Source of the DNA: Candidatus Krumholzibacteriia bacterium
GTDB taxonomy: Bacteria; Krumholzibacteriota; Krumholzibacteriia; WVZY01; JAKEHA01
Length of the DNA stretch: 64,000 nucleotides
Direction: 5' to 3'
Assembly: GCA_029865265.1 (NCBI GenBank)
Contig: JAOUHG010000001.1
Location: 93,213 to 157,212, forward strand
Under the pieces are notes generated by a model. That model was not told the DNA's origin and did no database searches. It worked only from the letters and a program-made list of their open reading frames with translations. Below are positions 14,627 through 41,876 of this stretch, piece after piece. A program made the position numbers and the translations under genes. Position 1 is the first letter of the stretch. Every line of letters starts with the position of its first letter.

Positions 14627-14784
14627 CCGGATTCCCGGCCCCCGGGGCGCGCAAAAAATTTTTCCCGAACTTAGCTACGAATTTCACAAACGGGTAGACT
14701 TAGATAGTTTTGCTGCTATACTTGAATTACGGACTAACAACTCCCTTATTGTTATCCAACGTCTAAACAGGGTGGCATTCCAAC
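14627..14784 (+). promoter_or_regulatory. AT-rich intergenic island upstream of hemA (putative promoter or regulatory region)
   Basis: 158-nt stretch with GC far below the ~68% background. It contains A/T runs, TTGAAT and TATACT hexamers and a CTTAG...CTTAGATAG direct repeat. Confidence 0.4.
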
Positions 14785-16071: not shown

Positions 16072-16083
16072 CGGGGGTGTTTC

Positions 16084-23662: not shown

Positions 23663-23784
23663 GACCGGAGCTTACCACCGGACGGATGCGGGCGGGCGCC
23701 AATTGATGGACTGCCCGTGGCGATGCGCGTTGCGCCAGCAACGGCAAACCCACTATAATGAGAGACGTCCCGGCCGCGGTTCCC

Positions 23785-26951: not shown

Positions 26952-29639
26952 TCAGCGGCCCTTCAGCAGGGCCGGCCAATCGTGGACCAAATAGATCAGC
27001 GAATTGGCGTTGTCGTCGGCGGTGACGGCGGCAAAGTAGCGCTTGCCGTCGCCGGTGAGCGTGCCGATGCGGTTGCGGGAGATGCGCATCTGCGGCACCG
27101 GTGTTCCCGCCCTGAAACTCGGGGTGTAATCCACCGGCACCCGCATCATGGTGGCACCGTCGGCGGCTTCGTAGAGCAGTTCACGCCCGCCCTTGTTCCA
27201 GAACACCGCAAACAGATCGCCATAGGATCCGGCGCCGTTGACGGACACGCGATACTTCTCCTGCAGGTCGGGGAACGACACCACGTACGTTTCGAACGAG
27301 CCCGACTCGTCTGAGTGATAGGCGAGATAGCGCCCGTCCGGGGAAACGGCGCCGCCCTTTTCATTGAATCGGGTCACGATGAAGGGCTTCGCCTCTCCCT
27401 TTCCATCCGTGGGAACCGTCCAGATGTCATAGCCGGTGTCGCGCGAGAGCGTGTGATAGACGATGGTTCCGCCGTCCGGTGTCCACGCGTTTGGGCGCAC
27501 AAACAGTTGATCGCGGCGGGTAAGCAGCGGGGTTTCCTCGCCCGCGCCACTGGCGTTCTTCACGTAGATGCCCTCGTTGCCGCCGCGGTTGCTGGCAAAG
27601 GCGATGCGCCGCCCATCCGGCGACCAGATCATGCTGCCGTTGATCGATGGATCGAAGGTCACCCGCGAGGCTGCGCCCCGGCTCAGCTCGATGATGAAGA
27701 TATCGCTGGTGTTCTCGGCGTTGGTGGCGCTCAGCCGCGACGCCGCCAGCCGGGTTCCGTCGGGGGAAAGAGCGACGTCGAGGTACATGCCGTCATCGAC
27801 GCGAACCTTGCCGCGCTGCACACCCGAGGCGTCCCACTCCGGGATGAATGACGACTGAACGGCGGACGTGGTGCGCACGATGACACCGTTGTCGGACACC
27901 GAGAGATTGGGGGAACCGCTCCATCCTCCGCTGGAACCGGGCGGCTCGCCCAGCGGGATCAGCGGGCCCGCCGCCTCCAGCTTCTTCGTGTCGAAACGCT
28001 GCGCGACCAGCGATTGCTCGCGGCCGTAAAGCACGAAACCCGGTTCCGCGTAAACCGCGGCCCCGCGCGCGTTGACCGCGAGCTTGCGGTCGAACGAATC
28101 AATGGACCCGACGAACGTGTCGAAGGTGCCGTTCTGCGCCGGCAACGACACGTACAGGAAGTGCTTTCCGTCGGGGAGGAAGCACGGAAAGCGGTGCGCC
28201 TGTTCGCCGCGGGTCGAATCCAGCTGGGTGACCTGCACCGGCACGCCGCCGTCGGCGGAAACCTTGAACAAAGGTCCGCCCGACGAGGGTGCAAACACGA
28301 TCACGCCATCGCGGTTCCAGGTCCCGCCCCGCCCGTCGGGGGCCGCGCATACCACCTGCGGGGTGCCGCCACCGGCCGGCATGCGCATCAGCTTGCCCGC
28401 GGCCGAGAAGAACGCGATGTTCCTGCTGTCGGCCGACCAGAAGGGCAGGCCGGAGTCTTCGGTGCCGGGGAGCGGCCGCGCCTGGCGGTCGTCGAGGTGA
28501 AGCGTCCACAGCCGATAGGTCCCGAGCGTGTCCGTCGCCAGGAACACAATGGAGCGTCCGTCCGGGGAGATCTTGATCTGGGCTTGCGACGCCGCGATGC
28601 TGTTGGCCCGGTCCAGCGGCTCCACCGCGAAGCGGCTGACCTCCAGGGTCTGCTTCGGGCGCATGAGTGTCGAGGTGGCGAGAGCGATTGCCGCGGCGCC
28701 GAACACCGCGGCTGTGATCCACGCGGTGCGCTCGCGGCTCCGGCGCCGTGCGCGCACCGGGGCGGCCACGCCTGCCTGCGACCCGGCGTCGCGGATCCAG
28801 GTGAGTTCCAGCATGAGGTCGCGCGCGGTCTGCCAGCGATCGTCCGGCTTCTTCTCCAGGCAGCGGTGCACCACGCGCTCGAACGCGGGCGGCGTAAGCG
28901 GCTGCAGTTCGGCGATGGCGCGCGGCTGGTCTTTCAGAATGGACGCGATGAGCGAGGCCTGGGTGTCTCCCTGAAACGCGCGACGCCCGGTGGCCATCTC
29001 GTAGAGTACGGCGCCGAACGAGAAGATGTCGGTACGCGCGTCGGCGGGGCGGCCTTCCAGCTGCTCGGGCGCCATATACTGGAAGGTGCCGATGATGGCG
29101 CCCTCAGCGGTGAGCGATCGCGCCATGGTGGGCGACTGGGTCAGGTCGCCGCCGGCGCCGAGTTCGGCGCTGCGCGCGAGGCCGAAGTCCAGCAGCTTGG
29201 CGCCCGACGGGGTGAGCATGATGTTGCCGGGCTTGAGATCGCGATGGATCAGGTTCTGGCGGTGCGCCCGATCCAGCGCGTCAGCAATCTGAATGCCGAT
29301 GACAAGGAGTTCGCGCATGGGGATAGCACCGCGCGCGATGCGGTCCTGCAGCGACTCGCCCTCGATGTACTCGAGCACCAGAAAGTCCACGCCGTCCTCG
29401 TGACCCACGTCGTGCAGCGTGCAGATGTTGGGATGGTTGAGGCTGGAGACTGCCCGCGCCTCGCGCTCGAAGCGCTGGCGCACCTCGGGCGATGCGGTCA
29501 GGTGGCCGGCGAGCACCTTGATGGCGACGTCGCGGTCCAGGCGCGTGTCGCGCGCGCGGTACACCTCACCCATGCCGCCCGCGCCGATGGGGGAGACGAT
29601 TTCGTACGGGCCGAGCCGTGTGCCGGGGTTGATCTGCAT
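26952..29639 (-). CDS. Ser/Thr protein kinase fused to a TolB-like beta-propeller (WD40-like) domain
   Basis: Hanks kinase motifs (GAGGMGEVY, AIK, HRDLKPGNIML, DFGLA, APE), a TM segment and ~550 aa of TolB-type repeats. Confidence 0.8.
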   Translation of the reverse strand: MQINPGTRLGPYEIVSPIGAGGMGEVYRARDTRLDRDVAIKVLAGHLTASPEVRQRFEREARAVSSLNHPNICTLHDVGHEDGVDFLVLEYIEGESLQDRIARGAIPMRELLVIGIQIADALDRAHRQNLIHRDLKPGNIMLTPSGAKLLDFGLARSAELGAGGDLTQSPTMARSLTAEGAIIGTFQYMAPEQLEGRPADARTDIFSFGAVLYEMATGRRAFQGDTQASLIASILKDQPRAIAELQPLTPPAFERVVHRCLEKKPDDRWQTARDLMLELTWIRDAGSQAGVAAPVRARRRSRERTAWITAAVFGAAAIALATSTLMRPKQTLEVSRFAVEPLDRANSIAASQAQIKISPDGRSIVFLATDTLGTYRLWTLHLDDRQARPLPGTEDSGLPFWSADSRNIAFFSAAGKLMRMPAGGGTPQVVCAAPDGRGGTWNRDGVIVFAPSSGGPLFKVSADGGVPVQVTQLDSTRGEQAHRFPCFLPDGKHFLYVSLPAQNGTFDTFVGSIDSFDRKLAVNARGAAVYAEPGFVLYGREQSLVAQRFDTKKLEAAGPLIPLGEPPGSSGGWSGSPNLSVSDNGVIVRTTSAVQSSFIPEWDASGVQRGKVRVDDGMYLDVALSPDGTRLAASRLSATNAENTSDIFIIELSRGAASRVTFDPSINGSMIWSPDGRRIAFASNRGGNEGIYVKNASGAGEETPLLTRRDQLFVRPNAWTPDGGTIVYHTLSRDTGYDIWTVPTDGKGEAKPFIVTRFNEKGGAVSPDGRYLAYHSDESGSFETYVVSFPDLQEKYRVSVNGAGSYGDLFAVFWNKGGRELLYEAADGATMMRVPVDYTPSFRAGTPVPQMRISRNRIGTLTGDGKRYFAAVTADDNANSLIYLVHDWPALLKGR

Positions 29640-30348: not shown

Positions 30349-30466
30349 GATAGCAGAAACGTAATCAGCGGGCGTTTGGATGTCAAAAGTACGCCGGGGC
30401 ATCGAATGCCTTGACACAACGGGCCACGTAAGCCTTCATTTGAGCACAGGATAGCCGCTTTCACGC

Positions 30467-31786
30467 ATGCGCCGTTACTTACCTATTGTTCCTCTTCTCA
30501 TCGCGATCCTCGCGGGCTGCGCGGGCAATCCGCCGGAGCCGACCACAGGTGTGGGCGATCCCTGCCGCGTGTCCGGACCGCACGATGGCACGGGGCCCGA
30601 CACGGTGTGGATTGCTGCCTCGCCGACAGAATGGGGCGCCAATGATTACATGCGGCTATTTATCGTGAATCGGTTTCCCACGCTGATCACAGTCGATTGC
30701 AATGGAGACATCCGCCCTGGGCTCGCAGAGATCGAGAGTGGTGCCGAAAGGCGTTGGGTATTGAAGATTCGCAACGACATCCGGTTCGCAAACGGCGAGA
30801 TTGCCGGGCCCGGCGATGTCGTCGACTCCTGGCGGCAGGCCATCGCCCTTGGGGCGGGCGTGGATTCCGTTGTGGCGCTCGATAACAGGCGCGTGGAAGT
30901 GTTTCTGGAGAGGCCGGGAATCGAAGCGTTGGCGTCGCCGGATCTGATGGTGCGTTCTTCGCGGGATTCTGCTGCTCCTCTGAAGGGGGCGCCGGGATTC
31001 ACGTTTGGTGCCCCCGAGGATCCACGCGACATGCTGGCGCGAACGTCCATCCTGCTGTCCAGAGACCCCGGTCTCGTCGCATACGCGGAGGAGAGGGGCA
31101 TGGTAGTGTTCGAGCTCCCATACGATCGAACGTACATGCTCCTCGCACCGTCACGCGTGAGAGATGTTTCAGCTGCTGCCGGCCCCGCGCATCCGAGTCC
31201 GGATCTTCGCCGCGACCTTGCGGCGGCTGTTCGCGAAGGGGAGGTTCGAGCCGCCGGGAGGGCGAACTGGTGGACCGATCTCCTCGATGGCTGTGGCCCG
31301 CTGGTACCCGTTCCCGCGTCAATGGCGGGCCTGCCGGACATCGACGGTTCCGTGGAGACGATCTTCTATGACGAGGAGGACGCCGTCGCGCGCGATCTAT
31401 CCGAGAGAATCGTCGCACTCACCGCCACCGACACGTTGCAGTCCCGGCCGGCCCGGGATCTCTTCCGCAGCCTGCCGGCGATTCGCCCGGGGAACGTGGT
31501 CGCGCGAGGGATAAGCGCGGAAGTGCTTCAGGGGTACCTTGAGGCCGGCAAGGCATTCGCCTTCGTCACCAGCGTCCGCAACCCGGTGGAAGACACGTGC
31601 GGATCCGCGCGTGACCTCTTCCGCCGTGCGCCGTGGCTGGCCGCTGGCGGCGCAGATTTACGCGACGTCGTGCTGGAGCTGGTAGATTTGTCGTCATATG
31701 TGATTCTTACCAACAGCAACGTTACCGTCACGTGGGACATCTACGGCAACGTACGTATCGTACCGCCGCCTGCGGAGCTGCCATGA
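30467..31786 (+). CDS. lipoprotein with a solute-binding-protein (family 5, DppA-like)-type region
   Basis: Lipobox (LIAILAGCAG) and a segment resembling the family-5 SBP signature (IRFANGEIAGPGDVVDSWRQ). Its stop overlaps the start of the downstream histidine kinase (ATGA). Confidence 0.45.
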   Translation: MRRYLPIVPLLIAILAGCAGNPPEPTTGVGDPCRVSGPHDGTGPDTVWIAASPTEWGANDYMRLFIVNRFPTLITVDCNGDIRPGLAEIESGAERRWVLKIRNDIRFANGEIAGPGDVVDSWRQAIALGAGVDSVVALDNRRVEVFLERPGIEALASPDLMVRSSRDSAAPLKGAPGFTFGAPEDPRDMLARTSILLSRDPGLVAYAEERGMVVFELPYDRTYMLLAPSRVRDVSAAAGPAHPSPDLRRDLAAAVREGEVRAAGRANWWTDLLDGCGPLVPVPASMAGLPDIDGSVETIFYDEEDAVARDLSERIVALTATDTLQSRPARDLFRSLPAIRPGNVVARGISAEVLQGYLEAGKAFAFVTSVRNPVEDTCGSARDLFRRAPWLAAGGADLRDVVLELVDLSSYVILTNSNVTVTWDIYGNVRIVPPPAELP

Positions 31787-33450
31787 GTTTTCGTGCGAGG
31801 CTCACGCTTGGCTTTCTCGCCGTTGCGATCGTGCCGATGCTGGTGCTCGGGGCTTTCGTGCGGCGAGAGATGACGGGCCGCCTGTCGGCGCAGTTCGAGC
31901 GCCGGGTGGAAGCGCTGACGGGCGTGGTGGAACGCGACCTGGCCGCGGAGCGGGACGCCATCCACGCCGCCCTTGCGCCCATCGCCGACCGCATGACCGA
32001 CGACACCCGCTTTCGCCGCGCCGCGGTGGACGGTGCTACCGACGAGCGTCGCTACCTGCTCGACTACGCCGGCGTCGCCATGCGCCTGGCGGGTCTGTCC
32101 ATGTTGCAGATCCAGGACGCGGACGGCCGCGTCATCAGTTCCGGGCACTTTCGCAACGACTACGACCGCGTGGACGCGCAGCTGCCGGTGCTGCTCTCCC
32201 GCGCCCCCGGTGGCGTGGCTTTGGTTCGCGCGCGCACTCCCGAGACCTCGTTTCTCGCCTTGGCGGGCGCGGACTCGGTGATGGTGGGGCGCAAGCACTT
32301 CTGGCTGGTCGGCGGCATCGAGGCGGAGTCGCGCCTGCTGGGGCGGCTGTCGCGCGGAGAGGACATGCGGGTGACACTGGTGCTGCCCGGTGACTCGGCC
32401 GCTGCAGGGGATGCGGTGGCGCGAACACTCACGGTTCCTGTTATCGGCGAAGCCGGCATGCAGATGGCTTCCATTCGTGTGGCGCACGACGTGAGCGAAT
32501 TGCACGCGCTGCGCGCCAGCATCGACCGCTGGATCCTGATCGCCGTGCTCTTGACCGGCGTGGCCGCGGTGCTCCTGGCCGGGATCATCGCCGCGCGCAT
32601 GGGCCAGCCCATCGTTGAGCTGGCGCGGCGGGCCGAGAGCGTCGATCTCGATCGCCTCGACGCGGATTTTGCCAGCGAACGCCGTGACGAAGTGGGTGTG
32701 CTGCAGCGATCGCTCGGTGCCATGGTTTCGAGGTTGCGTGAGAGTGCTTCCGCGCTGCGTGACGCCGAGCGCCGCGCCACCCTCGGAGAGATCGCGCGCC
32801 AGGTGAACCACGACATCAAGAACGGTCTTACACCCATTCGCAACGTGTTCCGTCACCTCGACGAGCAGGCCACCGTGGAGCCCACCTCGTTGCCGCGTGT
32901 GTATGGCGAGCGCCGCGAGACCATCGACGCCTCCATCGCATACCTGGAGACGCTTGCGTCGAATTATGCAAAACTGGCCCGGCGGGGTGGGAAGCCGCGC
33001 ACCAACCTCGGAGACGTGGTGCGTGGCGTGGTGAGCAGCCGCTCGGGGGCACCTGCTTTGAAACTGCGTGCCGAAGGGCCCGACGTGTTCGTGAATGCCG
33101 ACCCGGTTGCGCTGCGCCGCATTGTGGAGAACCTGGTGAGCAACGCCATCGACAGCATCCATAACGGAGACGGGCAGGTGACGGTGTCCACCGCGGCGGT
33201 GGGGGATGTGCGCACCGGGCGCGTGCGGCTGGCCGTCACCGACACCGGCAGCGGCATCGCGCCGGAACTGCAGGAGAAGATCTTCGGCGACTTCTACACC
33301 ACCAAACCCGACGGCACCGGTCTGGGCCTCTCCATTGTGCGGCGCATGGTCATGGACCTCGATGGCACCATCGCGCTGGATAGCGAACCCGGCAAGGGAA
33401 GCCGTTTTGTTGTCGAATTGCCCGCGGCCGCACCGGAGGTGAAGGAATGA
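31785..33450 (+). CDS. sensor histidine kinase (two TM helices, periplasmic domain, HAMP, HisKA, HATPase_c)
   Basis: TM1 (LTLGFLAVAIVPMLVLGAFV), a periplasmic segment, TM2 (WILIAVLLTGVAAVLLAGIIAA), an H-box (LGEIARQVNHDIKNGLTPI), N box, and G1/G2 boxes (VTDTGSGI...GTGLGLS). Confidence 0.75.
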
Positions 33451-34802
33451 TCCGCGTGCTCATCGTGGACGACGTCAGGAACCTGGCCGACCAGTACGCC
33501 TATGACCTCAAGCGCATGGGCGGCTTCGAGACGCGCGTGGCCACATCGGGCAAGGAGGCGCTGGATCTCATCGCCTGGGATCCGGTGGACTGCGTGATCC
33601 TGGACCTGGAGATGCCTGGCATCGACGGGTTCGAGGTGCTGCGCACCATGGACCGCGAGGGCCATGGTATCCCCGTGATCGTATACACCGGCACCGGCAA
33701 CTACGACCGCTGCGTGCAGGCGGTTCGCTTGGGTGCCGCCGGCTTCATCGACAAGTCGGAACCCATGGCGCGGGTGGTGCATGAGGTGGAGACGGCGCTG
33801 GAGCGCGCACGGCTGCGCGAAGAAGTAAAGAGCCTGCGCGGCGACGCCGACACGGCCCTCATCGGCACCAGCGCACCGGCGCGGGCACTGGCGCAGCATA
33901 TTGCGCGCGTGGCTGCCATTCCCAGCACGGTGCTGATCGTGGGCGAGAGCGGCACCGGCAAGGAAGTGGTGGCGCGCGAGCTGCACCGCCTGGGACCGCA
34001 CCCGGAGGGGCCGTTCGTGGCGGTGAACAGCGCCGCACTCCCCGACAACCTGGTGGAGAGCGAGCTGTTCGGGCACGAACGCGGCGCGTTCACCGGCGCC
34101 AATCGCACCCACCGCGGCGCCTTCGAGCGCGCGTCGGGCGGAACGCTGTTCCTGGATGAAATCGGCGAGTTGCCGGCAGCGGTGCAGGCCAAACTGTTGC
34201 GCGTGCTGGAGCAGAACGAGATTACGCGCGTGGGTGGTGAGCAGAGCATCAAGGTGGCCGCGCGGGTCATCGCGGCCACGCACCGCGATCTCGAGGCGGA
34301 CGTGGACGCAGGGCGCTTCCGGCGCGATCTGTTCTTTCGCATCAACGTGCACCTGCTGCCCGTTCCGCCGCTCGCCGACCGGCGCTCCGACATTCCGGAA
34401 CTCGCCAACCATTTTCTCACCGCGACCTGTGCCAGCTTCAAGACCCGGCGCAAGCACCTCGATCGGGAGGCGCTCGAAGCGCTCATGGCGTACGACTGGC
34501 ACCGCAACAACGTGCGCGAATTGCGCAATGCCGTGGAGCGCATGGTGCTGGCAACCGACGGCGCGGTGATCACCCTCGCGGACGTGCCCGCCGACATCCG
34601 GCCGCCAACCGATGCCGCGAGCCCGCCGTCGGGTGCCACCAGTTTCCGCGACCGGAAGCTCGAGGCCGAGCGGCAGATCGTGGTGGGTGCGCTGGAGGCG
34701 GCGGAATGGAACGTCACCCGCGCTGCCGCCGACCTGGGCCTGGCCGACCACGCCAGCCTGCAGAAGATCATGCGCCGTCTGGGCATCCGGCGGCCGCGCT
34801 AG
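33447..34802 (+). CDS. sigma-54-dependent response regulator (NtrC family): REC + AAA+ + Fis-type HTH
   Basis: Receiver domain (VLIVDD...DCVILDLEMPGIDG), Walker A (GESGTGKE), a GAFTGA-like loop (RGAFTGA), ESELFGHE, and a C-terminal HTH (NVTRAAADLGLADHASLQKIMRRLGI). Confidence 0.85.
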   Translation: MIRVLIVDDVRNLADQYAYDLKRMGGFETRVATSGKEALDLIAWDPVDCVILDLEMPGIDGFEVLRTMDREGHGIPVIVYTGTGNYDRCVQAVRLGAAGFIDKSEPMARVVHEVETALERARLREEVKSLRGDADTALIGTSAPARALAQHIARVAAIPSTVLIVGESGTGKEVVARELHRLGPHPEGPFVAVNSAALPDNLVESELFGHERGAFTGANRTHRGAFERASGGTLFLDEIGELPAAVQAKLLRVLEQNEITRVGGEQSIKVAARVIAATHRDLEADVDAGRFRRDLFFRINVHLLPVPPLADRRSDIPELANHFLTATCASFKTRRKHLDREALEALMAYDWHRNNVRELRNAVERMVLATDGAVITLADVPADIRPPTDAASPPSGATSFRDRKLEAERQIVVGALEAAEWNVTRAAADLGLADHASLQKIMRRLGIRRPR

Positions 34803-34803
34803 C

Positions 34804-34855
34804 TGTGTCCTCTCGGACACAAGCCATCCCACGGGCTGTGTGTCCAGCCAGACAC
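34804..34855 (+). promoter_or_regulatory. two tandem inverted repeats sharing GTGTC/GACAC half-sites (candidate enhancer/UAS for the NtrC-type regulator)
   Basis: TGTGTCC-tctc-GGACACA (34804-34821) and GTGTC-cagcca-GACAC (34840-34855), ~90-130 bp upstream of the -24/-12 element. Confidence 0.4.
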
Positions 34856-34931
34856 TAGCCCGCCGCCGACCCATCCCACCGTTCTCGGTAACTAGTTGTA
34901 AAATAAAGCTATTAAAGAGACAGCCGCCCCC

Positions 34932-34947
34932 TGGCGGCGCGCTTGCG
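34932..34947 (+). promoter_or_regulatory. sigma-54 (-24/-12) promoter candidate
   Basis: TGGCGGCGCGCTTGCG has GG and GC at the canonical spacing of the TGGCAC-N5-TTGC consensus, ~45 nt upstream of the ATG at 34992 and followed by an AGGAGG RBS. Confidence 0.5.
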
Positions 34948-34991
34948 ATATCCCCTCCCCGGAGCCGAACAACGGCCCAGGAGGTAAGACC

Positions 34992-36026
34992 ATGTTGAAA
35001 GAACAGAAGTTCATGAGTCCCGTAGCATTGTTTGCGGCCGCGGCCGCACTCGCCGTGTTCGCCGCAGGGTGCGGCACCGACGAGGAAACGTTTCAGAGCA
35101 AGAACACCGTCAAGACCACCCCTGCGCCCCCGGCCCATGTGGCGACCACGCCGCCGGCGCGCACGCCGCTGGTCACCGTGCCGGAAGTTCCGGAGCCGCC
35201 GCGCGAGGTGACCTACGAAGAGGCGGAGGCGGCGTACAACGCGAAGCGCTACGACGAGGCGTGCGATCTTTTCATGCGTTACAGCGAGCGCAAGCCCGAC
35301 AATCCGTGGGGGCACTATATGCTGGGGCTCTCCGCGTGGAAGGCCGGCGCGCTCGAAACCGCCGAGACCGAGTTCAGGCGCACCATCGCGCTCGACACGA
35401 CGCACGTGAAGAGCTACGTCAACCTGGCGCGCGTGCTGCTGGACGCCGGACGTCCGGGCGAGGCGTACACCAATGCCGACAACGCGCTCATCATCGACGC
35501 GTCCTCGGTGGCGGCGTGGCGCGTGAAGGGCCGCGTGTGCCACACACTGGGACGCACCGACGAAGCCGTGGGTGCGTATCGCAACGCGATCCGGCTGGAC
35601 CCCGAAGACGCGTGGTCGATGAACAACCTCGCGTTCATCTGGATCGAGCAGGAGCGATTCGAGGAGGCGCTGGGGCCACTGGCGCGCGCCATCGAGTTGC
35701 GTGGCGACGTGGCCGTGTTCCACAACAACCTCGGTATGGCATTGGAGCGAAGCGGCCACCCGTTGGCCGCGGAGGCCGAGTATGTCGCCGCGACCAACGC
35801 CGACCCGTTGTACGAAAAGGCCGCGTTGAATGGCGAACGCATCGCCCAGGTTTTGAAGGGTCCCGACGAAGTACCGGTGGATCTTGCGGGCCTCGCGCGC
35901 GACTTCGTCACCGGGATCGATGGAACGGACGAACCCGCGCTGGCGACCGCGACACCGGACCGCGCAGAGGTGCCGCCCGTGACATCGTCCGCGCCGGACT
36001 CCACGTTGGCCGACTCGAAGCGCTGA
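34992..36026 (+). CDS. TPR-repeat lipoprotein
   Basis: Signal plus lipobox (VALFAAAAALAVFAAGCG) followed by 5-6 TPR units (WGHYMLGLSAWKAG..., YVNLARVLLDAG..., WSMNNLAFIWIEQ...). Confidence 0.7.
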   Translation: MLKEQKFMSPVALFAAAAALAVFAAGCGTDEETFQSKNTVKTTPAPPAHVATTPPARTPLVTVPEVPEPPREVTYEEAEAAYNAKRYDEACDLFMRYSERKPDNPWGHYMLGLSAWKAGALETAETEFRRTIALDTTHVKSYVNLARVLLDAGRPGEAYTNADNALIIDASSVAAWRVKGRVCHTLGRTDEAVGAYRNAIRLDPEDAWSMNNLAFIWIEQERFEEALGPLARAIELRGDVAVFHNNLGMALERSGHPLAAEAEYVAATNADPLYEKAALNGERIAQVLKGPDEVPVDLAGLARDFVTGIDGTDEPALATATPDRAEVPPVTSSAPDSTLADSKR

Positions 36027-36047
36027 CGCCGATGCCGTCCATTATCA

Positions 36048-36078
36048 CAGCCCCGTCCCGCACGCCGGGACGGGGCTG
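36048..36078 (+). terminator. 13-bp perfect GC-rich hairpin after the TPR gene (terminator or attenuator; no T-run)
   Basis: CAGCCCCGTCCCG-cacgc-CGGGACGGGGCTG. Confidence 0.35.
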
Positions 36079-36107
36079 TTGCCCGGTGGGGGAGAGCTAA
36101 CCCGTTA

Positions 36108-37262
36108 TTGCTCAAGGTTGTAAGCCAGTCGCCAACCGTGCTAGAATGGATGCTTGCGGCGCGGTCCCCGCGCCCAACCACCTGGAGCACAGCCTTTTTG
36201 CGGACCCTCTATTCCATCACCGAAGCGACCGGCATCAACCGGTTGTTCGCACACCTCAACCGGACCCAACCCATCGTGCTCGCCTTCCACGGGGTAACCG
36301 CGGAAGCGCCCGGCAACCTGTGCAACCACGAGGGCAAGCACCTGTATCTGCCCATCTTTGAGCGGCTCATGGAACACGTGGCCCGCAACTATGCGGTGGT
36401 GCCCCTGGCGCAGGTGGCGGACTGGGTGGATGGCCGCGCAAAGCTGCCCGAGAACGCGGTTGCACTCACGTTCGATGATGGCTACCGCAACGTGTTCACC
36501 AACGCGGCCCCGGTTCTGAAACGGCTCGGCATGCCTTCGACATTGTTCGTGGTAACGGACTTCGTGTTCCACCAGCGTATGCTGTGGCCGGATCGTCTCA
36601 TGAGTGCGATTGCCATGACCCACGCGCCGCGCGTGTCGGTACCGGCAAGCGGCGGGCAACTGGAACTCCCCCTGGGTGACGACCGCGAGAGGCGCGCGGC
36701 CGACGCTTACATCTGCGCGCTGTGCAAGCGCATGCCCGAGAAGGACAAGCAGAGCTTCCTGGACTACGTCATCGGGGAGATGCACGTTCCTGAGCAGGAG
36801 ATCATCGGTGCGTGGCAGGATCACGCCCCCATCCAGCCAGACGAACTGAGGGAACTGAAGGAGTACGGCATGGAAATCGGGTCGCACACCTGCAGCCACG
36901 GTATTGTGACGCGTTTCACGCCGGACGCAATGACGCACGAACTCGCCGTCTCCAAACTGCTGCTGGAGCAGGTTACCGGCCGCCCGTGCGCGGAGTTCAG
37001 CTACCCGAACGGGGCCATCGGCGATTTCAACGATGAGAGCCGCACCCACGTGACCAGGGCCGGTTACCGTTGTGCGGTGACCACGGTGAAGCGTCGCGTC
37101 GCACGCGGCGACGATCGTTACCAGATTCCAAGGTGTATCCTCACCCACAATCAAATTACGACCGCGGAGTTCTCCGCCCATGTCAGCGGCTTGCCGGCCT
37201 TTCTGCGCGCGGTTCGAGCGCGTGTAACCGGGGCGGGCCCGGCGCAGGAAACCGCGGCGTGA
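36108..37262 (+). CDS. polysaccharide deacetylase (NodB-homology, carbohydrate esterase 4 family)
   Basis: NodB motifs TFDDGY (motif 1) and later His-containing motifs; resembles the PEP-CTERM-locus type deacetylases. Confidence 0.7.
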   Translation: MLKVVSQSPTVLEWMLAARSPRPTTWSTAFLRTLYSITEATGINRLFAHLNRTQPIVLAFHGVTAEAPGNLCNHEGKHLYLPIFERLMEHVARNYAVVPLAQVADWVDGRAKLPENAVALTFDDGYRNVFTNAAPVLKRLGMPSTLFVVTDFVFHQRMLWPDRLMSAIAMTHAPRVSVPASGGQLELPLGDDRERRAADAYICALCKRMPEKDKQSFLDYVIGEMHVPEQEIIGAWQDHAPIQPDELRELKEYGMEIGSHTCSHGIVTRFTPDAMTHELAVSKLLLEQVTGRPCAEFSYPNGAIGDFNDESRTHVTRAGYRCAVTTVKRRVARGDDRYQIPRCILTHNQITTAEFSAHVSGLPAFLRAVRARVTGAGPAQETAA

Positions 37263-37290
37263 GACCCTGTTGGCAAGGAACTGGCCGCCC

Positions 37291-38379
37291 ATGAACAAGC
37301 ACACGCTGCCCATCGTCGCCTACCAGCCCGATCAGCACGCCGAGGCGCTGTTCCGATTCATCGAAAAGGTCCTGGGCAAGGAGATGTGCGAGCGCCGCCG
37401 CCGCGTCATCGAGACCATGCATACCACCATGCCCGGTCACGATCGCTTTCCGCTGCGCCACGTCATCGTGGACGGCGACCGCATCGCGGGAACGCTGGGT
37501 TACATGCCGGCGGACTTCTGGGTGAACGGCAAGCGGGTGGCGGTGCGCTTCACCCACGACCTGCTGGTGGACCCGGACTACCGTGGCGCGGGACTGGGCC
37601 GGTTGATCGTGGACAACGCGCGCGCGCTGGGGGACTTCTTTCCGGGGGGCATGTGGATGACGGATCCGTGCCGCAAGATCCATGTGGATTGCGGCTTCAA
37701 GGATGCAACTCCCCTGGTGACATACAGCCTGGTGCTGGACCCGGTGGCGTTCGTGGTGCGCAAGAGCATGTCGGGGCTCAAGGGTCTTGCCAGCCGCACG
37801 GCGCTTTCCGCAAGCCGGACGTTCGCGCTGGCGCGGGCGCGGAGGCTGGCGTCACACACTTCGCTGCGCGAGGTAGAGCGCTTCGATCCGTCAATGGATG
37901 GCGCATGGGAAACCCTCGCGCGCGGCTATGGCATCACCCGTGTGCGCGACGCCGCCTATCTCAACTGGAAGTACTCGGACCATCCCTCGCTGGACTACCA
38001 CAATCTCGTCGCGATGCGTGCCGACACGCCCACCGGCTTCCTGGTGTGGCGGCTCGCGCCGCCGGGCGCGGAGGAGAAGCGGGCGGTGGCGGTCGATTTC
38101 CTCACCGCCCGCGGCGATGCGCAGACGTTGCGCCGGTTGATTGCGCGCGTGGTGGTGGAAGCGCACGCGGCGGGTATGGAATCGGTCTCGGTGTTGACCA
38201 CCCAGACATGGGCGGCGAGCACCCTGCGCGGCCTGGGCTTCATGCCGCGCGCGGCCCGCAACACCTGGGTAGTGGCCGGGTGGGAGAAGGTCATTCCTTA
38301 CGAGTGGCTTTCCGACACCACCGCCTGGCACGTGTGCCTGGGCGATTCCGACGGAGACATGTGGACGGGGAGCATCTAG
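37291..38379 (+). CDS. GNAT-fold acyltransferase of the FemAB/BioF2-like type
   Basis: ~360 aa with a GNAT core (LLVDPDYRGAGLGRLIVDNA) and a long C-terminal extension; follows the deacetylase by 8-30 nt. Confidence 0.5.
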   Translation: MNKHTLPIVAYQPDQHAEALFRFIEKVLGKEMCERRRRVIETMHTTMPGHDRFPLRHVIVDGDRIAGTLGYMPADFWVNGKRVAVRFTHDLLVDPDYRGAGLGRLIVDNARALGDFFPGGMWMTDPCRKIHVDCGFKDATPLVTYSLVLDPVAFVVRKSMSGLKGLASRTALSASRTFALARARRLASHTSLREVERFDPSMDGAWETLARGYGITRVRDAAYLNWKYSDHPSLDYHNLVAMRADTPTGFLVWRLAPPGAEEKRAVAVDFLTARGDAQTLRRLIARVVVEAHAAGMESVSVLTTQTWAASTLRGLGFMPRAARNTWVVAGWEKVIPYEWLSDTTAWHVCLGDSDGDMWTGSI

Positions 38380-38390: not shown

Positions 38391-39440
38391 CTAGTGCTGC
38401 GTCGGGAAGACCGCGTTCCAGTCGTCCCGCATGTCCACCACCAGCCAGTGCTTTGCGCGCGCCTCATCGAGCGCCTTGTCCAGCCGTCCTATCGGTGACT
38501 CGCGATCGTAGGCCCATTCACGTCCGTCGTCGGTGTGATGGATGAGCGCCGCGAGCCGCGGTCCGGGTCCACCGGCGGTCCACTGCAGCATCTGCAGGTC
38601 GCCGTCTGAGTTTCCGAACGCGATGACCGGCCGCCGCCCGATGAAGCGCTGGATGCCGATCGGCTTTTCTTCCTTGTCGTCGATGAACTCGAGCTCGGGA
38701 AGACGCGTCAGGACCGGCGTTCCGTCCTTGCGAATCTCGAACCTGGTCTTGATCTGGCTTCCGATGACCTGCTCGGGGGGAATGCCATACACGCCTTCGG
38801 TCCAGGGACGCATGAAGTCGATGCCGCCGCCGGACACGATGTAGGTCTTGTAGCCGCGCTCGCGCAGGTAAGACAACAGTTCCAGCATGGGCTGATACGC
38901 GCACTGGATGTACGCCCTGTCCAGCGTGGGATGCGACGACACCGCCACCCAGTCCTTCACGATCTCCGCAAACTCATCCGTGGTCATGCCCGCGTGCGTT
39001 GCCATGACGATCTCCGCGATGGCCTTGTGTCCGCCGGCGAGTGCGCCTCTCGTGTCGCCCGCCAGCAGGGAGCGGAATGGCTCGCGGTTGCGCCACTCGG
39101 GATGTTGGGGGGCGAGGACCTTCACACGGTCGATCGCGAACGCGAGCTGGATGTACATGGGCTGCTCGGCCCACAGCGTGCCGTCGTTGTCGAATACCGC
39201 GACTCGTTCACGCTCTGGAACGAACTCGGGGTCGCCCGGCGAGGACGTGTGGCGCACGAAGTCCAGGATGGCCGTCTTTACCGGGCCGTCGTTCCACGAG
39301 GGGAGCGGGTCGGTGGCCACGGCGGACGCGGTCGCTTCTTCCTGCGAATCGTTGGACGATCGCGAGCATCCCCACACGAACACCGCGCTGGCGGTGAGTA
39401 CGACGAGCCACAAGCATGAAAACTTCTCAATCAGACGCAT
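38391..39440 (-). CDS. secreted HAD-superfamily hydrolase (acid-phosphatase-like)
   Basis: Lipoprotein-type signal (LWLVVLTASAVFVWGCS), HAD motif I (VFDNDGTLW) and motif IV (GNSDGD). Start is set at the ATG preceded by GGGAGG. Confidence 0.65.
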   Translation of the reverse strand: MRLIEKFSCLWLVVLTASAVFVWGCSRSSNDSQEEATASAVATDPLPSWNDGPVKTAILDFVRHTSSPGDPEFVPERERVAVFDNDGTLWAEQPMYIQLAFAIDRVKVLAPQHPEWRNREPFRSLLAGDTRGALAGGHKAIAEIVMATHAGMTTDEFAEIVKDWVAVSSHPTLDRAYIQCAYQPMLELLSYLRERGYKTYIVSGGGIDFMRPWTEGVYGIPPEQVIGSQIKTRFEIRKDGTPVLTRLPELEFIDDKEEKPIGIQRFIGRRPVIAFGNSDGDLQMLQWTAGGPGPRLAALIHHTDDGREWAYDRESPIGRLDKALDEARAKHWLVVDMRDDWNAVFPTQH

Positions 39441-41006: not shown

Positions 41007-41701
41007 GGATCGACGGAAACGCCCGTGTGTTGCGTGAAGGAGAATGAGAAATCACCGATCACAATGGCGCAGCCGTCGGACAGCTCGCGGTCCTTCACCG
41101 CCTCGCCGTCCACCTTGACGCGCGTCCTTCCATCCAGATGGCGGATCGAGTAATGCCCGCCAAGAAAGCGAATCTCGGCGTGATAGGGCGCGATGCCACG
41201 GCCGCGAATGATGATGTCGGCCGCTTCGTCACTGCCGATGATCATGAGCCCGCGATCCAGTGAGTAGGTCCGCTCGCGGTCCGGTGAGGTTTCGGTGAGC
41301 GTGGCCGGGTTGGTGATGGGGCCGGGCTGGTTATCGGCGCCGGCGAGCAGGGTGGACTCGAACAGCACTGGGTCCGCGGCGACGCTCCCGTCCGGCGCGG
41401 CGACGCGGCAGATGATGTTGTGCTTGCCGATGGTGATGATGTCCCCATGCGACAGTCTCGCATGATCGACGTGCACGCCGTTGACGCGCGTGCCGTTGGC
41501 ACTCTCGTGGTCGCGGATGATGAGGCCGTCCGGTGACATTTCAATGGTGGCGTGCAGTCGCGACACGGACAGGTTGTCGATCACGATGTGGTTGTCGGCC
41601 GTGCGACCGATCTTGATGGCGGTTTCTCCCACCGGCCACCGCCCGAGTTCGCTGCCCTTGAACTCCAGCGAAAGGATGTAGCCGTGCGATGGCTGGCTCA
41701 T
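41003..41701 (-). CDS. protein with two FHA (forkhead-associated) domains
   Basis: Two FHA cores (IKIGRTADNHIVIDNLSVSRLHATI...GTRVNG and MIIGSDEAADIIIRGRGIAPYHAEI...RTRVKVDG). Overlaps the kinase gene start by 4 nt. Confidence 0.75.
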   Translation of the reverse strand: MSQPSHGYILSLEFKGSELGRWPVGETAIKIGRTADNHIVIDNLSVSRLHATIEMSPDGLIIRDHESANGTRVNGVHVDHARLSHGDIITIGKHNIICRVAAPDGSVAADPVLFESTLLAGADNQPGPITNPATLTETSPDRERTYSLDRGLMIIGSDEAADIIIRGRGIAPYHAEIRFLGGHYSIRHLDGRTRVKVDGEAVKDRELSDGCAIVIGDFSFSFTQHTGVSVDP

Positions 41702-41876
41702 GCGTCGTCTCCCGCGGGGATGCGCGTAACGTGTTGTAAGACAATTGAATAAAAGTGCCGGCTGCCAGGGGGAGAGGTGCAAAAAGCATGCCGGGGACAC
41801 CCGCCCCGGGGGCCACGCCGCGCGGCCCTATGCCACCGTCAGCTATTGATCGGCTGGCGCGCCGGGATCGCGGCGC

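What the first reader, a model, noticed from the sequence alone, without database searches (positions are those of the whole stretch)
30467..38379. Sigma-54 regulatory module: SBP-like lipoprotein, sensor kinase and NtrC-type regulator, then a -24/-12 promoter driving TPR lipoprotein, polysaccharide deacetylase and FemAB-like acyltransferase
Seen in sequence:
- The lipoprotein stop overlaps the kinase start (31785).
- The kinase stop overlaps the regulator start (33447).
- 130 nt after the regulator stop there is a TGGCGGCGCGCTTGCG -24/-12 element, preceded by two GTGTC/GACAC palindromes.
- After the element come the TPR lipoprotein, a strong hairpin (36048-36078), a NodB-type deacetylase and a FemAB-like GNAT protein.

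Established knowledge:
- This gene set mirrors the PEP-CTERM/exosortase-associated regulatory triad: a sigma-54 two-component pair plus a TPR lipoprotein.
- It also mirrors the deacetylase and FemAB-like proteins found in exopolysaccharide loci.

Inference:
- An unknown periplasmic signal, sensed through the SBP-like lipoprotein, controls an exopolysaccharide or cell-surface modification programme.
- No exosortase or glycosyltransferase is inside the window.
Basis: partly seen in the sequence, partly recalled or inferred. Interest (0 to 1): 0.55.

Follow-up and report, generated by a model that had tools for sequence, protein, structure and literature searches.

The report
Sigma-54 sensor cassette driving TPR lipoprotein

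Summary

**What comparative data support.** About 110 related loci show a four-gene unit: an SBP-family-5-like lipoprotein, a histidine kinase, an NtrC-type regulator and a TPR lipoprotein.
- Between regulator and TPR gene lie two 16-bp palindromes, GTGTCC-N4-GGACAC, 34 bp apart.
- Then come an AT-rich stretch with an IHF-like core, a -24/-12 promoter (TGGYCC-N5-TTGCC), and a leader with a small hairpin.
- The distance from palindrome to promoter falls in classes about 11 bp apart (about 63, 75, 85, 97), as face-of-helix looping predicts.
- A strong hairpin follows the TPR gene in 18 of 19 loci, so the transcript probably carries that gene alone.

**What is not supported.**
- The deacetylase and GNAT genes are syntenic only in the closest relative and have their own extended -10 promoter.
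- The GNAT protein matches no FemAB model.
- All PEP-CTERM models (PrsK, PrsR, PrsT, deacetylase) score far below their cut-offs.
- No exosortase or glycosyltransferase matched among the ~39 longer ORFs scanned.

**Closest working analogue.** AioX/AioS/AioR. The signal and the TPR protein's role are unknown. The lipoprotein diverges far faster than its neighbours.

The parts
30390..30466 (+). Conserved upstream region of the lipoprotein-kinase-regulator operon, shared with divergent msrA. It contains TTGACA and TTCATTTG and is the likely constitutive promoter and leader.
   Evidence: It is nearly identical in L005 and strongly conserved in L004, although the adjacent lipoprotein is only 45-51% identical. 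The promoter assignment is inferred.
30467..31786 (+). Lipoprotein of 439 aa (lipobox LAGC), a divergent cluster-C / family-5 solute-binding-protein fold. Proposed ligand sensor.
   Evidence: Pfam gives only 15.7 bits for SBP_bac_5. The family profile hits NikA, OppA and MppA at 1e-19. The AlphaFold2 model has pLDDT 88 and its top Foldseek hits are all family-5 SBPs. The family has 1059 representatives of 50%-identity clusters.
31783..33450 (+). Sensor histidine kinase of 555 aa: TM1, a periplasmic domain of about 250 aa with no known family, TM2, HAMP, an H-box and HATPase_c.
   Evidence: The start overlaps the lipoprotein stop as ATGA. The periplasmic domain has no Pfam or PDB sequence match.
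33447..34802 (+). NtrC-type response regulator and enhancer-binding protein of 451 aa: REC (D53), an AAA+ domain with GESGTGKE and GAFTGA, and a Fis-type HTH.
   Evidence: HTH_8 scores 22.6 bits on the C-terminal 50 aa. The start overlaps the kinase stop as ATGA.
34805..34820 (.). Enhancer site 1: palindrome GTGTCC-TCTC-GGACAC.
   Evidence: It is conserved in 20 of 20 genome loci, and 92 metagenome stretches carry the exact dual site.
34840..34855 (.). Enhancer site 2: GTGTCC-AGCC-AGACAC, starting 35 bp after site 1.
   Evidence: Start-to-start spacing is 33-35 bp in all loci, mostly 34.
34889..34919 (.). AT-rich bend region with an IHF-like core: CAACTAGTTA on the minus strand at 34889-34898.
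   Evidence: The AT fraction peaks at 0.61 against 0.36 in the flanks. CAA-N4-TTR occurs in 38 of 70 loci against 2.8 in shuffles. IHF involvement is inferred.
34932..34947 (+). Sigma-54 -24/-12 promoter TGGCGGCGCGCTTGCG. The predicted transcription start is near 34957.
   Evidence: The element is conserved as TGGYCC-N5-TTGCC. It lies 76 bp after site 2, one of four spacing classes about 11 bp apart.
34964..34976 (+). Small leader hairpin, GCCG-aacaa-CGGC, 2 nt upstream of the Shine-Dalgarno AGGAGG (34979-34984).
   Evidence: An equivalent GC hairpin (GCCC/GGGC or GCGCC/GGCGC) sits at the same place in nearly all loci. RNAalifold gave no consensus on the MAFFT alignment.
34992..36026 (+). TPR lipoprotein of 344 aa (lipobox AAGC), with a Pro/Thr-rich linker and about six canonical TPRs. 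It is the conserved sigma-54-dependent output gene.
   Evidence: Identity across phyla is 42-65%. No curated family reaches its cut-off.
36048..36078 (+). Terminator-like hairpin with a 13-bp GC stem that ends the TPR transcript.
   Evidence: -32.7 kcal/mol. A comparable hairpin follows the TPR stop in 18 of 19 loci.
36139..36147 (+). NOT part of the module: extended -10 element TGCTAGAAT (with TTGTAA 18 bp upstream) for the deacetylase-GNAT pair.
   Evidence: L004 has TGGTAGAAT at the equivalent place.
36198..37262 (+). NOT part of the conserved module: NodB-type polysaccharide deacetylase, 354 aa from the called start.
   Evidence: Polysacc_deac_1 scores 84.5 bits. The gene is syntenic only in L004.
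37291..38379 (+). NOT part of the conserved module: 362-aa protein with an N-terminal GNAT domain. It is not FemAB-like.
   Evidence: Only Acetyltransf_1, _7 and _9 match. PDB hits are weak. The gene is syntenic only in L004.

Best explanation
The module is a three-component sigma-54 signalling cassette with a single dedicated output gene.

1. The lipoprotein, kinase and regulator genes are translationally coupled and probably transcribed from a conserved constitutive promoter shared with divergent msrA.
2. The lipoprotein is a family-5 solute-binding-protein fold with no ABC transporter partner. It is anchored in the periplasm, binds an unknown ligand and passes its state to the periplasmic domain of the kinase, as AioX does for AioS.
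3. The kinase phosphorylates D53 of the NtrC-type regulator.
4. The phosphorylated regulator assembles on two palindromes, GTGTCC-N4-GGACAC, 34 bp apart, that begin 3 bp after its own stop codon.
5. An AT-rich, IHF-like bend loops the DNA. The regulator contacts sigma-54 holoenzyme at TGGCGGCGCGCTTGCG through its GAFTGA loop.
6. Transcription runs from about 34957 to the hairpin at 36048-36078 and yields an mRNA for the TPR lipoprotein alone.
7. The TPR lipoprotein is predicted to be a periplasmic protein-protein scaffold of the cell envelope.

Shown by sequence and comparison: the gene order, the domains, and the conserved, helically phased cis-elements.
Inferred: binding of the regulator to the palindromes, sigma-54 dependence, signalling from lipoprotein to kinase, and the function of the output.
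For: - Domains and motifs.
- ATGA overlaps between the three genes.
- The four-gene order lipoprotein-kinase-regulator-TPR recurs in 19 of 21 genome loci that extend past the regulator. These come from Krumholzibacteriota, Latescibacterota, Gemmatimonadota and 'Glassbacteria' MAGs. No other flanking gene family is conserved.
- Both palindromes recur in all 20 TPR-bearing loci, and nothing else in 441 kb matches with at most 1 mismatch.
- An exact-match scan of metagenomes for the dual site gave 92 stretches. In 80 of them the regulator, the TPR gene or both lie next to the site, and most of the rest are short contigs.
- The -24/-12 consensus has invariant GG and TGC.
- The gap from site 2 to the promoter clusters at 62-63, 75, 83-89 and 95-98 bp.
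- An AT-rich peak and an IHF-like core are enriched between enhancer and promoter: 38 of 70 loci against 2.8 expected.
- A strong hairpin follows the TPR gene in 18 of 19 loci, and the next gene is often on the other strand.
- The lipoprotein has an SBP fold, and no transporter genes are conserved nearby.
- The AioXSR precedent for an SBP, kinase and sigma-54 activator working together: PMC6011840, PMC5908839.
Against: - There are no expression, binding or rpoN data. The organisms are uncultured, and rpoN is not in the window.
- In this window the second palindrome has one mismatch (AGACAC), and the -24/-12 element matches the family consensus less well than in most other loci (8 of 11 specified positions).
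- In the two nearest Krumholzibacteriia loci, L007 and L008, no palindromes or TPR gene follow the regulator.
- The terminator has only a TT tail, so some read-through into the deacetylase gene cannot be excluded.
- Physical contact between lipoprotein and kinase is untested. The kinase's own periplasmic domain is far better conserved than the lipoprotein, so it may sense something itself.
Confidence: 0.75

Rival explanations
1. This is a PEP-CTERM/exosortase-type regulatory triad (PrsK/PrsR/PrsT-like), and its sigma-54 promoter drives an exopolysaccharide or surface-modification operon: TPR lipoprotein, deacetylase and FemAB-like acyltransferase.
For: - The architecture resembles that triad superficially: a kinase, a sigma-54 regulator and a TPR lipoprotein.
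- PrsT, PrsR and PrsK do appear among the NCBIfam hits.
- The deacetylase and GNAT genes follow on the same strand in the window and in L004.
Against: - All PEP-CTERM models score far below their curated cut-offs. For the kinase and regulator other families score higher (AtoC 381 against PrsR 334). PrsT tops the TPR protein's list but covers only generic repeats.
- The TPR protein has 344 aa; the PrsT model has 899 positions.
- The enhancer motif differs from the PEP-CTERM box.
- The acyltransferase matches no FemAB or Acetyltransf_6 model.
- The deacetylase and GNAT genes are absent from the 18 more distant TPR-bearing loci.
- A strong terminator and a separate conserved TGnTAGAAT promoter lie between the TPR gene and the deacetylase gene.
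- No exosortase, PEP-CTERM, glycosyltransferase or polysaccharide-export domain matched among the window ORFs scanned.
Confidence: 0.05
2. The hairpin after the TPR gene is leaky or regulated. In this lineage the sigma-54 promoter therefore also raises deacetylase and GNAT expression, a lineage-specific extension of the regulon into cell-wall or polysaccharide modification.
For: - The genes share a strand and lie close together in the window and in L004.
- The hairpin lacks a long U-tract.
- The neighbouring HAD gene on the minus strand is conserved in the same two loci and has a lipobox-like N-terminus (VWGC).
Against: - The hairpin is very stable, at -32.7 kcal/mol.
- A separate extended -10 promoter is conserved in both loci.
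- Synteny is limited to one close relative.
Confidence: 0.15
3. The lipoprotein is an ordinary transport SBP for a peptide, nickel or opine ABC importer encoded elsewhere. The two-component system simply lies next to it and senses through the kinase's own periplasmic domain.
For: - The fold and profile matches are to transport SBPs: NikA, OppA, MppA.
- The kinase periplasmic domain is large, of no known family and highly conserved.
Against: - The lipoprotein gene is translationally coupled to the kinase gene.
- It is the first gene of the unit in every locus across at least three phyla.
- No permease or ATPase genes are conserved nearby.
- The family does not merge with the very large SBP_bac_5 family: about 1,000 representatives, and Pfam is below its cut-off.
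Confidence: 0.1
4. This is a PilS/PilR-like system controlling a PilW/PilF-type TPR pilotin for type IV pili or a secretin.
For: - The TPR protein hits the type_IV_pilW and Tgl models weakly.
- From my own recollection, not checked here, PilR sites contain (C/G)TGTC.
Against: - PilW scores 62 against a cut-off of 154, and Tgl 37 against 225.
- The kinase has a large periplasmic domain. By my recollection, not tested here, PilS instead has a multi-span membrane domain.
- No pil or secretin genes are conserved around any locus.
Confidence: 0.03

Closest known systems
AioX/AioS/AioR arsenite-sensing three-component system (Rhizobium NT-26, Agrobacterium)
   Same: - A periplasmic binding-protein-like sensor, a membrane histidine kinase and an NtrC-type sigma-54 activator are co-transcribed in that order.
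- A -24/-12 promoter for the target lies immediately downstream on the same strand (PMC6011840, PMC5908839).
   Different: [quoted passage not shown] I did not run an AioX model against this lipoprotein.
- The Aio target is an enzyme operon (aioBA), not a single TPR lipoprotein.
- The enhancer motif, kinase sensor domain, ligand and phyla all differ.
PrsK/PrsR/PrsT PEP-CTERM regulatory system (Haft et al. 2006, PMC1569441)
   Same: A histidine kinase, a sigma-54 NtrC-type regulator and a TPR lipoprotein occur together, with sigma-54 promoters in front of single-gene units.
   Different: - None of the three proteins reaches its TIGRFAM cut-off.
- PrsT is about 900 aa; this TPR protein is 344 aa.
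- PrsK has a different, multi-span sensor domain.
- That system has no SBP-like lipoprotein.
- Its enhancer box ends in TTTACA; this one is GTGTCC-N4-GGACAC.
- Here the TPR gene is the target rather than a co-regulator.
- There is no exosortase or exopolysaccharide context.
ZraP/ZraS/ZraR envelope-stress system of Enterobacteria (comparison from my own knowledge)
   Same: A sigma-54 two-component system whose principal adjacent target is one periplasmic accessory protein. ZraS and ZraR are among the better NCBIfam hits.
   Different: - ZraS scores 105 against 479, and ZraR 315 against 760.
- zraP is transcribed divergently and encodes a small helical chaperone, not a TPR lipoprotein.
- That system has no SBP-like component.
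Cluster-C (family 5) solute-binding proteins used as signal receptors: AapF (HEHEAA), PrgZ (peptide pheromone), MppA (murein tripeptide)
   Same: The lipoprotein shares their fold. These proteins appear among the top structural and profile hits.
   Different: - They feed ABC transporters. This lipoprotein has none nearby and is coupled to a kinase.
- Identity is about 10-14%.
- The protein is shorter, at about 420 mature residues against about 500.

Membership tests
PEP-CTERM regulatory system (PrsK/PrsR/PrsT) | The regulator reaches the TIGR02915 (PEP_resp_reg) trusted cut-off of 502.6 bits. | tested here: not met
   334.1 bits. AtoC (381), NtrC (366) and NtrX (334.5) score higher.
PEP-CTERM regulatory system (PrsK/PrsR/PrsT) | The kinase reaches the TIGR02916 (PEP_his_kin) cut-off of 300 bits, including its specific membrane sensor domain. 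| tested here: not met
   83.8 bits, aligned only over the catalytic core, residues 344-597.
PEP-CTERM regulatory system (PrsK/PrsR/PrsT) | The TPR lipoprotein reaches the TIGR02917 (PEP_TPR_lipo) cut-off of 312 bits and is about 900 aa long. | tested here: not met
   65.5 bits over generic repeats, and 344 aa. All 19 orthologues behave the same way.
PEP-CTERM regulatory system (PrsK/PrsR/PrsT) | A PEP-CTERM box (17-nt motif 1 ending in TTTACA) lies upstream of the -24/-12 element. | tested here: not met
   The conserved upstream element is GTGTCC-N4-GGACAC, present twice. The motif description comes from PMC1569441.
PEP-CTERM regulatory system (PrsK/PrsR/PrsT) | The system co-occurs with an exosortase (EpsH/XrtA), PEP-CTERM proteins and exopolysaccharide genes. 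| tested here: inconclusive
   None matched among the window ORFs scanned, and none is conserved beside 20 related loci. The rest of the genome could not be searched.
XrtA-system polysaccharide deacetylase / FemAB-like protein of exopolysaccharide loci | TIGR03006 reaches at least 276 bits for the deacetylase, and a FemAB-type model (Pfam FemAB or Acetyltransf_6) matches the acyltransferase. | tested here: not met
   The deacetylase scores 27.2 bits. The acyltransferase has no NCBIfam hit, and in Pfam it matches only Acetyltransf_1, _7 and _9 over residues 51-117.
NtrC-family sigma-54 enhancer-binding response regulator | It has a REC domain with a phospho-acceptor Asp, an AAA+ Sigma54_activat domain with Walker A and GAFTGA, and a C-terminal Fis-type HTH. 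| tested here: met
   Response_reg 82 bits, Sigma54_activat 223 bits, AAA_lid_14 79 bits. D53, GESGTGKE and GAFTGA are read directly from the sequence. HTH_8 scores 22.6 bits against a cut-off of 22.
Sigma-54-dependent promoter | It has GG-N10-GC (TGGCAC-N5-TTGCW-like) upstream of the target gene, with an upstream enhancer. Dependence on RpoN must be shown experimentally. | tested here: inconclusive
   The sequence element is present and conserved in about 80 loci with phased spacing. RpoN dependence, and the presence of rpoN in this genome, cannot be tested with these tools.
Solute-binding protein family 5 (cluster C; Pfam SBP_bac_5) | The Pfam PF00496 gathering score of 32.4 bits is reached, or failing that the fold is that of a cluster-C SBP. 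| tested here: inconclusive
   The sequence fails the Pfam cut-off at 15.7 bits. The family profile hits NikA, OppA and MppA at 1e-19 over the N-terminal 180 residues or so. The pLDDT-88 model's best 50 Foldseek hits are all family-5 SBPs, at E about 1e-14 and TM 0.4-0.5. It is a divergent relative, not a canonical member.
AioXSR-type three-component system | A periplasmic binding protein signals to the kinase in a ligand-dependent way; a sigma-54 activator is present; the three genes are co-transcribed. | not testable with these tools
   Gene order and coupling agree. The interaction and the ligand need experiments. The binding protein is assigned here to family 5, whereas AioX is described as its own sub-family (PMC5908839); no AioX model was run.
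NodB polysaccharide deacetylase (neighbouring gene) | The Pfam PF01522 gathering score of 23.1 bits is reached. | tested here: met
   84.5 bits, matched in two stretches.

The most novel reading that the evidence does not exclude
The cassette may be a previously unrecognised, self-contained envelope-surveillance or peptide-signalling circuit particular to Krumholzibacteriota, Latescibacterota and Gemmatimonadota. In this reading a rapidly diversifying family-5 SBP-like lipoprotein acts as a receptor specific to a strain or lineage. Its ligand would be variable, for example a peptidoglycan-derived or secreted peptide. The kinase's periplasmic domain, which matches no known family, would read the receptor's state. 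The sole output would be an envelope lipoprotein: TPR in most lineages, OmpA-domain in the L086/L122 variant. That lipoprotein would remodel the outer membrane or cell wall, or feed back on it.
Probability: 0.2. Interest if true: 0.65.

Novelty: new variant of a known kind. Interest (0 to 1): 0.45.

Why it matters
- **A complete testable circuit.** For phyla with almost no genetics, this gives a base-pair-resolved regulatory circuit: sensor, kinase, activator, operator, bend, promoter, leader, target and terminator. It can be rebuilt in a heterologous host.
- **A natural phasing series.** The spacing classes of about 63, 75, 85 and 97 bp test face-of-helix constraints on sigma-54 activation.
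- **A binding-protein fold used as a kinase co-sensor.** The family-5 fold appears here without a transporter. Its mature domain diverges far faster than everything around it, which points to shifting ligand specificity.
- **An annotation warning.** The combination of a sigma-54 regulator and a TPR lipoprotein should not be labelled PEP-CTERM or exopolysaccharide regulation without the family-specific models.

Tried and rejected
- **First structure prediction.** With 11 sequences the lipoprotein model had pLDDT 41 and was unusable. A 134-sequence alignment gave pLDDT 88.
- **Leader consensus structure.** RNAalifold on the MAFFT-aligned TPR leaders gave no consensus structure, because the hairpins were misaligned. 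The hairpin was then documented locus by locus. No covariance model was built.
- **Rfam.** A gathering-threshold scan of the whole window found nothing.
- **Kinase periplasmic domain.** A profile search against PDB and Pfam found only the HAMP part.
- **TPR orthologue profile.** Searches against PDB and NCBIfam found only generic TPR proteins and no family above its cut-off.
- **Literature.** Searches for the module (sigma-54, SBP, TPR lipoprotein, phylum names) found no description.
- **Conserved neighbours.** All-against-all clustering of flanking ORFs in 27 loci found no conserved family other than the four genes.
- **Genes inserted between regulator and enhancer.** In L033, L095, L107 and L084, judged from their N-terminal sequences only, these look like unrelated insertions: NadA-like, an ATPase and HigA-like.
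- **TGTAAA at 34897-34902.** This is the reverse complement of the TTTACA of the PEP-CTERM box. I rejected it because it has the wrong orientation and spacing and is not conserved in the other loci.

Full report
**1. Where the window comes from**

The regulator protein is encoded identically on ENA metagenome contigs, the longest of them 313 kb. The nearest genome relatives of the locus are MAGs labelled Candidatus Krumholzibacteriia. More distant relatives are Latescibacterota, Gemmatimonadota/Gemmatimonadales and 'Glassbacteria' MAGs. Several window proteins carry type IX secretion C-terminal domains, which I take as consistent with the FCB group.

**2. Check of the observation**

All coordinates hold.
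- The lipoprotein gene (30467-31786) ends inside ATGA at 31783-31786, where the kinase gene starts.
- The kinase gene ends inside ATGA at 33447-33450, where the regulator gene starts.
- The regulator stop is at 34800-34802.
- The palindromes GTGTCCTCTCGGACAC (34805-34820) and GTGTCCAGCCAGACAC (34840-34855) are the only matches to GTGTC-N(2-10)-GACAC in 64 kb.
- TGGCGGCGCGCTTGCG starts at 34932.
- The TPR gene runs from 34992 to 36026, with AGGAGG 7 nt before the ATG.
- The hairpin at 36048-36078 has a 13-bp stem.

Domain content is as stated for the kinase, regulator, TPR protein and deacetylase.

On its own the -24/-12 match is not significant: 5 matches to TGGC-N7-TTGC against 3.3 expected. 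The case for function rests on comparison with other loci.

**3. Comparative genomics redefines the unit**

The lipoprotein has no Pfam family and few close homologues. A profile search found 1059 representatives of 50%-identity clusters.

A scan of one genome per species returned 26 loci. tblastn with the window's proteins gave these results.
- The order lipoprotein-kinase-regulator-TPR is kept in 19 of the 21 loci that extend beyond the regulator.
- Identities to the window proteins in the cross-phylum loci (L009-L031) are 42-55% for the kinase, 60-72% for the regulator, 42-62% for the TPR protein and only 29-34% for the lipoprotein.
- The deacetylase, GNAT and HAD genes are found only in L004, the closest relative that has enough flanking DNA.

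All-against-all clustering of every flanking ORF found no other conserved family. The conserved entity is therefore a four-gene cassette. The span 36100-38379 of the finding is neighbourhood, not module.

**4. Cis-regulatory architecture**

In all 20 TPR-bearing loci the region between regulator and TPR gene has the same layout.
- Two copies of GTGTCC-N4-GGACAC lie 33-35 bp apart, start to start, mostly 34.
- A spacer follows.
- Then comes a -24/-12 element with consensus TGG(C/T)CC-N5-TTGCC.
- A leader follows: 44-76 nt from the -12 C to the ATG in 19 of 20 genome loci, and 137 nt in L015. It is followed by AGGAGG and then the start codon, ATG, followed in most loci by TTG.

Every match with at most 1 mismatch to the palindrome in 441 kb of locus DNA is one of these sites.

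An exact-match scan of public metagenomes for the dual palindrome returned 92 stretches.
- In 47 the regulator gene and the TPR gene both lie next to the site.
- In a further 33, one of them does. Most of these are short or truncated contigs, but in a few (L033, L095, L107) 1.6-2 kb of unrelated DNA separates the regulator from the site.

Across 60 non-redundant metagenome sites, GG and TGC are invariant in the promoter.

The gap from the end of site 2 to the T of TGG is not continuous. It clusters at 62-63, 75, 83-89 (mode 85) and 95-98 bp. The genome loci show 74-76, 85-87 and 94-97 bp. Steps of about 11 bp are what a face-of-helix constraint on enhancer-promoter looping predicts.

The spacer has an AT-rich peak 20-60 bp upstream of the promoter, with AT fraction 0.61 against 0.36 in the flanks. 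A CAA-N4-TTR core, part of the IHF consensus, occurs there in 38 of 70 loci against 2.8 in composition-matched shuffles. In the window it is CAACTAGTTA on the minus strand at 34889-34898.

**5. Extent of the transcript**

Within 20-60 nt of the TPR stop, 18 of 19 loci have a hairpin of -24 to -40 kcal/mol. The following gene is often on the opposite strand.

In the window a sigma-70-type promoter with an extended -10 (TTGTAA-18-TGCTAGAAT, 36118-36147) follows the hairpin. L004 has TGGTAGAAT at the corresponding position. The deacetylase-GNAT pair therefore most probably has its own promoter. Some read-through cannot be excluded, because the hairpin has only a short T tail.

**6. The proteins**

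- **Regulator.** It has D53, GESGTGKE, GAFTGA and a Fis-type HTH. It is a complete NtrC-type activator.
- **Kinase.** It has two membrane segments around a domain of about 250 residues. That domain is strongly conserved across phyla but has no detectable relative in Pfam or PDB.
- **Lipoprotein.** It has a canonical lipobox (LAGC).
  - Its own sequence reaches only 15.7 bits on SBP_bac_5.
  - A 134-sequence family profile matches NikA, AapF, OppA and MppA at up to 1e-19.
  - An AlphaFold2 model with pLDDT 88 has only family-5 SBPs among its best 50 Foldseek matches, at E about 1e-14.
  - 'SBP-like' is therefore confirmed at fold level.
  - No ABC transporter genes accompany it in any locus.
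- **TPR protein.** It is a lipoprotein in most lineages, with a Pro/Thr-rich linker and a highly conserved block of about six canonical repeats. Profile searches return only generic TPR proteins, and no curated family reaches its cut-off.
- **Acyltransferase.** It has one N-terminal GNAT domain and no FemAB-type match.

**7. Mechanism proposed**

The closest working model is AioX/AioS/AioR. There a periplasmic binding protein reports its ligand to a kinase, and a sigma-54 activator turns on the adjacent downstream promoter. The three regulatory genes are co-transcribed (PMC6011840 and PMC5908839).

Here the lipoprotein would sense a periplasmic ligand, the kinase would phosphorylate the regulator, and the regulator would assemble on the two palindromes. 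With the help of a bend, it would activate sigma-54 holoenzyme at 34932-34947. The product is one mRNA for a TPR lipoprotein.

The comparative data establish the wiring. They do not establish the signal or what the TPR protein does.

Two observations point towards the cell envelope.
- In the variant loci L086 and L122, the same enhancer and a -24/-12 element 86 bp away precede a lipoprotein with an OmpA peptidoglycan-binding domain. That gene lies upstream of the lipoprotein-kinase-regulator genes.
- With the narrow family profile, the best PDB matches are murein-tripeptide and oligopeptide binders.

Both are hints, not evidence of function.

**8.

The PEP-CTERM system is defined by TIGR02915, TIGR02916 and TIGR02917, by a specific enhancer box, and by co-occurrence with exosortase and exopolysaccharide genes (PMC1569441).
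- The three proteins here score 334 against 503, 84 against 300 and 66 against 312.
- The enhancer is different.
- None of the ~39 longer window ORFs scanned matched an exosortase, glycosyltransferase or polysaccharide-export domain. What is there instead includes a heme-biosynthesis cluster, Rho, an OPT transporter, TonB/ExbD, Ser/Thr kinases and type IX secretion cargo.

Membership is rejected. The general resemblance, a sigma-54 two-component system plus a TPR lipoprotein, remains as an analogy only.

**9. An unexpected feature: the fast-diverging lipoprotein**

The mature part of the lipoprotein diverges much faster than its surroundings.
- Against L005, nucleotide identity is 97% across msrA, the intergenic region and the signal peptide. 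It is undetectable by blastn across the lipoprotein body, and 84% across the kinase and regulator.
- Against L005, protein identity is 45% for the lipoprotein against 88% for the kinase and 93% for the regulator.
- L004 and L007 show the same pattern: 43-51% against 77-82%.
- GC at third codon positions is 0.71 in the lipoprotein gene, against 0.80-0.87 in neighbouring genes.

This fits diversifying selection or allele exchange in the ligand-binding component. Chimeric assembly cannot be excluded for L005 alone.

**10. Verdict**

The regulatory reading is supported and considerably sharpened. The functional reading, as exopolysaccharide or exosortase control, is not supported.

The module is a new family-level variant of a known kind of system. 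No curated model or paper I could find describes it. Interest is moderate: the logic is familiar. What stands out is the precision of the conserved architecture, the transporter-less and fast-evolving SBP sensor, the single-lipoprotein output and the restriction to poorly known phyla. Together these make it a good experimental entry point.

Noticed in passing
window 30535-31690 (lipoprotein mature region), compared with L005, L004, L007: The lipoprotein body is a divergence hot spot. Against L005, blastn identity is 97% in the left flank, undetectable in the body, and 84% across the kinase and regulator. Protein identity is 45% against 88-93% for the neighbours. GC3 is 0.71 against 0.80-0.87. 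This suggests diversifying selection or allele replacement; for L005 alone, a chimeric assembly is also possible.
   Followed up: partly
window 34964-34976, and the equivalent place in about 70 loci: A conserved small GC hairpin (GCCC-loop-GGGC, GCGCC-loop-GGCGC, or here GCCG-aacaa-CGGC) sits upstream of the Shine-Dalgarno sequence in the TPR leader: 2 nt upstream here, about 8-14 nt in most other loci. It is often followed by CGAACC..AAAGGAGG. It may be an mRNA-stability or translation-control element. Rfam has no match.
   Followed up: partly
L086:4861-5722 and L122:2609-3398: A variant cassette. The same dual palindrome and a -24/-12 element (TGGTGTGTAACTTGCG, 86 bp away) precede an OmpA-domain lipoprotein gene. 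That gene lies upstream of the lipoprotein-kinase-regulator genes, so in this variant the system may regulate itself.
   Followed up: partly
L043, L070, L097 (the same sequence on three contigs): Three GTGTCC-N4-GGACAC palindromes are followed after 85 bp by a perfect TGGCACGACTCTTGCC. Downstream are tandem GCAGTATGCTGGGGATAACC-like repeats and a GC-rich palindromic stretch, with no convincing ORF. This could be a non-coding target or a different lineage's arrangement.
   Followed up: no
window 30390-30466: The msrA/lipoprotein intergenic region (…CTTGACACAACGGGCCACGTAAGCCTTCATTTGAGCACAGGATAGCCGC…) is much better conserved than the lipoprotein gene it precedes. TTCATTTG resembles the Bacteroidota-type -7 element TAnnTTTG; that consensus is from my own knowledge.
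   Followed up: partly
L033:9317-11303, L095:1479-3468, L107:1291-2930, L084:188-1174: In some loci 1-2 kb of unrelated DNA is inserted between the regulator gene and the enhancer. Judged from N-terminal sequences only, the inserts encode NadA-like, ATPase and HigA-like proteins. The enhancer, promoter and TPR gene stay together.
   Followed up: partly
L007:5903-6853 and L008:3824-4262: In the two nearest Krumholzibacteriia MAG loci, no palindromes, promoter or TPR gene follow the regulator. The target may lie elsewhere in those genomes or may have been lost.
   Followed up: no
window 9795-20131: A contiguous heme-biosynthesis cluster, assigned from Pfam domains: URO-D, HemN-like radical SAM, a protoporphyrinogen-oxidase-like flavoprotein, ferrochelatase, glutamyl-tRNA reductase, a fused porphobilinogen deaminase/uroporphyrinogen-III synthase, ALAD and an aminotransferase.
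   Followed up: no
window 22049-23662 (minus strand): A type III polyketide synthase (chalcone/stilbene synthase-like) lies next to an ICMT-family methyltransferase. This pairing may make an alkylresorcinol- or alkylpyrone-type lipid.
   Followed up: no
window 23758-25842, 50960-52246, 52261-55659, 60436-62598: Secreted proteins carry type IX secretion C-terminal sorting domains (Por_Secre_tail, CHU_C) or FlgD_ig-like C-terminal domains: an M1 peptidase, Big_1 proteins and an endonuclease/phosphatase-family protein. I take this as consistent with an FCB-group organism.
   Followed up: no
window 26952-29639 and 39507-41800 (minus strand): Two Ser/Thr protein kinases flank the locus. One is fused to PD40/TolB-like beta-propeller repeats. 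The other lies directly downstream of, and overlaps by 4 nt, a gene for a protein with two FHA domains.
   Followed up: no
window 38391-39440 (minus strand): A HAD-IB family hydrolase has a lipoprotein-type signal (VWGC). It is conserved with the deacetylase and GNAT genes in L004 (81% identity). The three may form a local envelope-modification group unrelated to the sigma-54 cassette.
   Followed up: no
window 475-3210 (minus strand): A 911-aa fusion of an ADP-forming acyl-CoA synthetase (CoA_binding, Succ_CoA_lig, ATP-grasp_5) with a C-terminal GNAT domain. I read this as a Pat-type protein acetyltransferase architecture.
   Followed up: no
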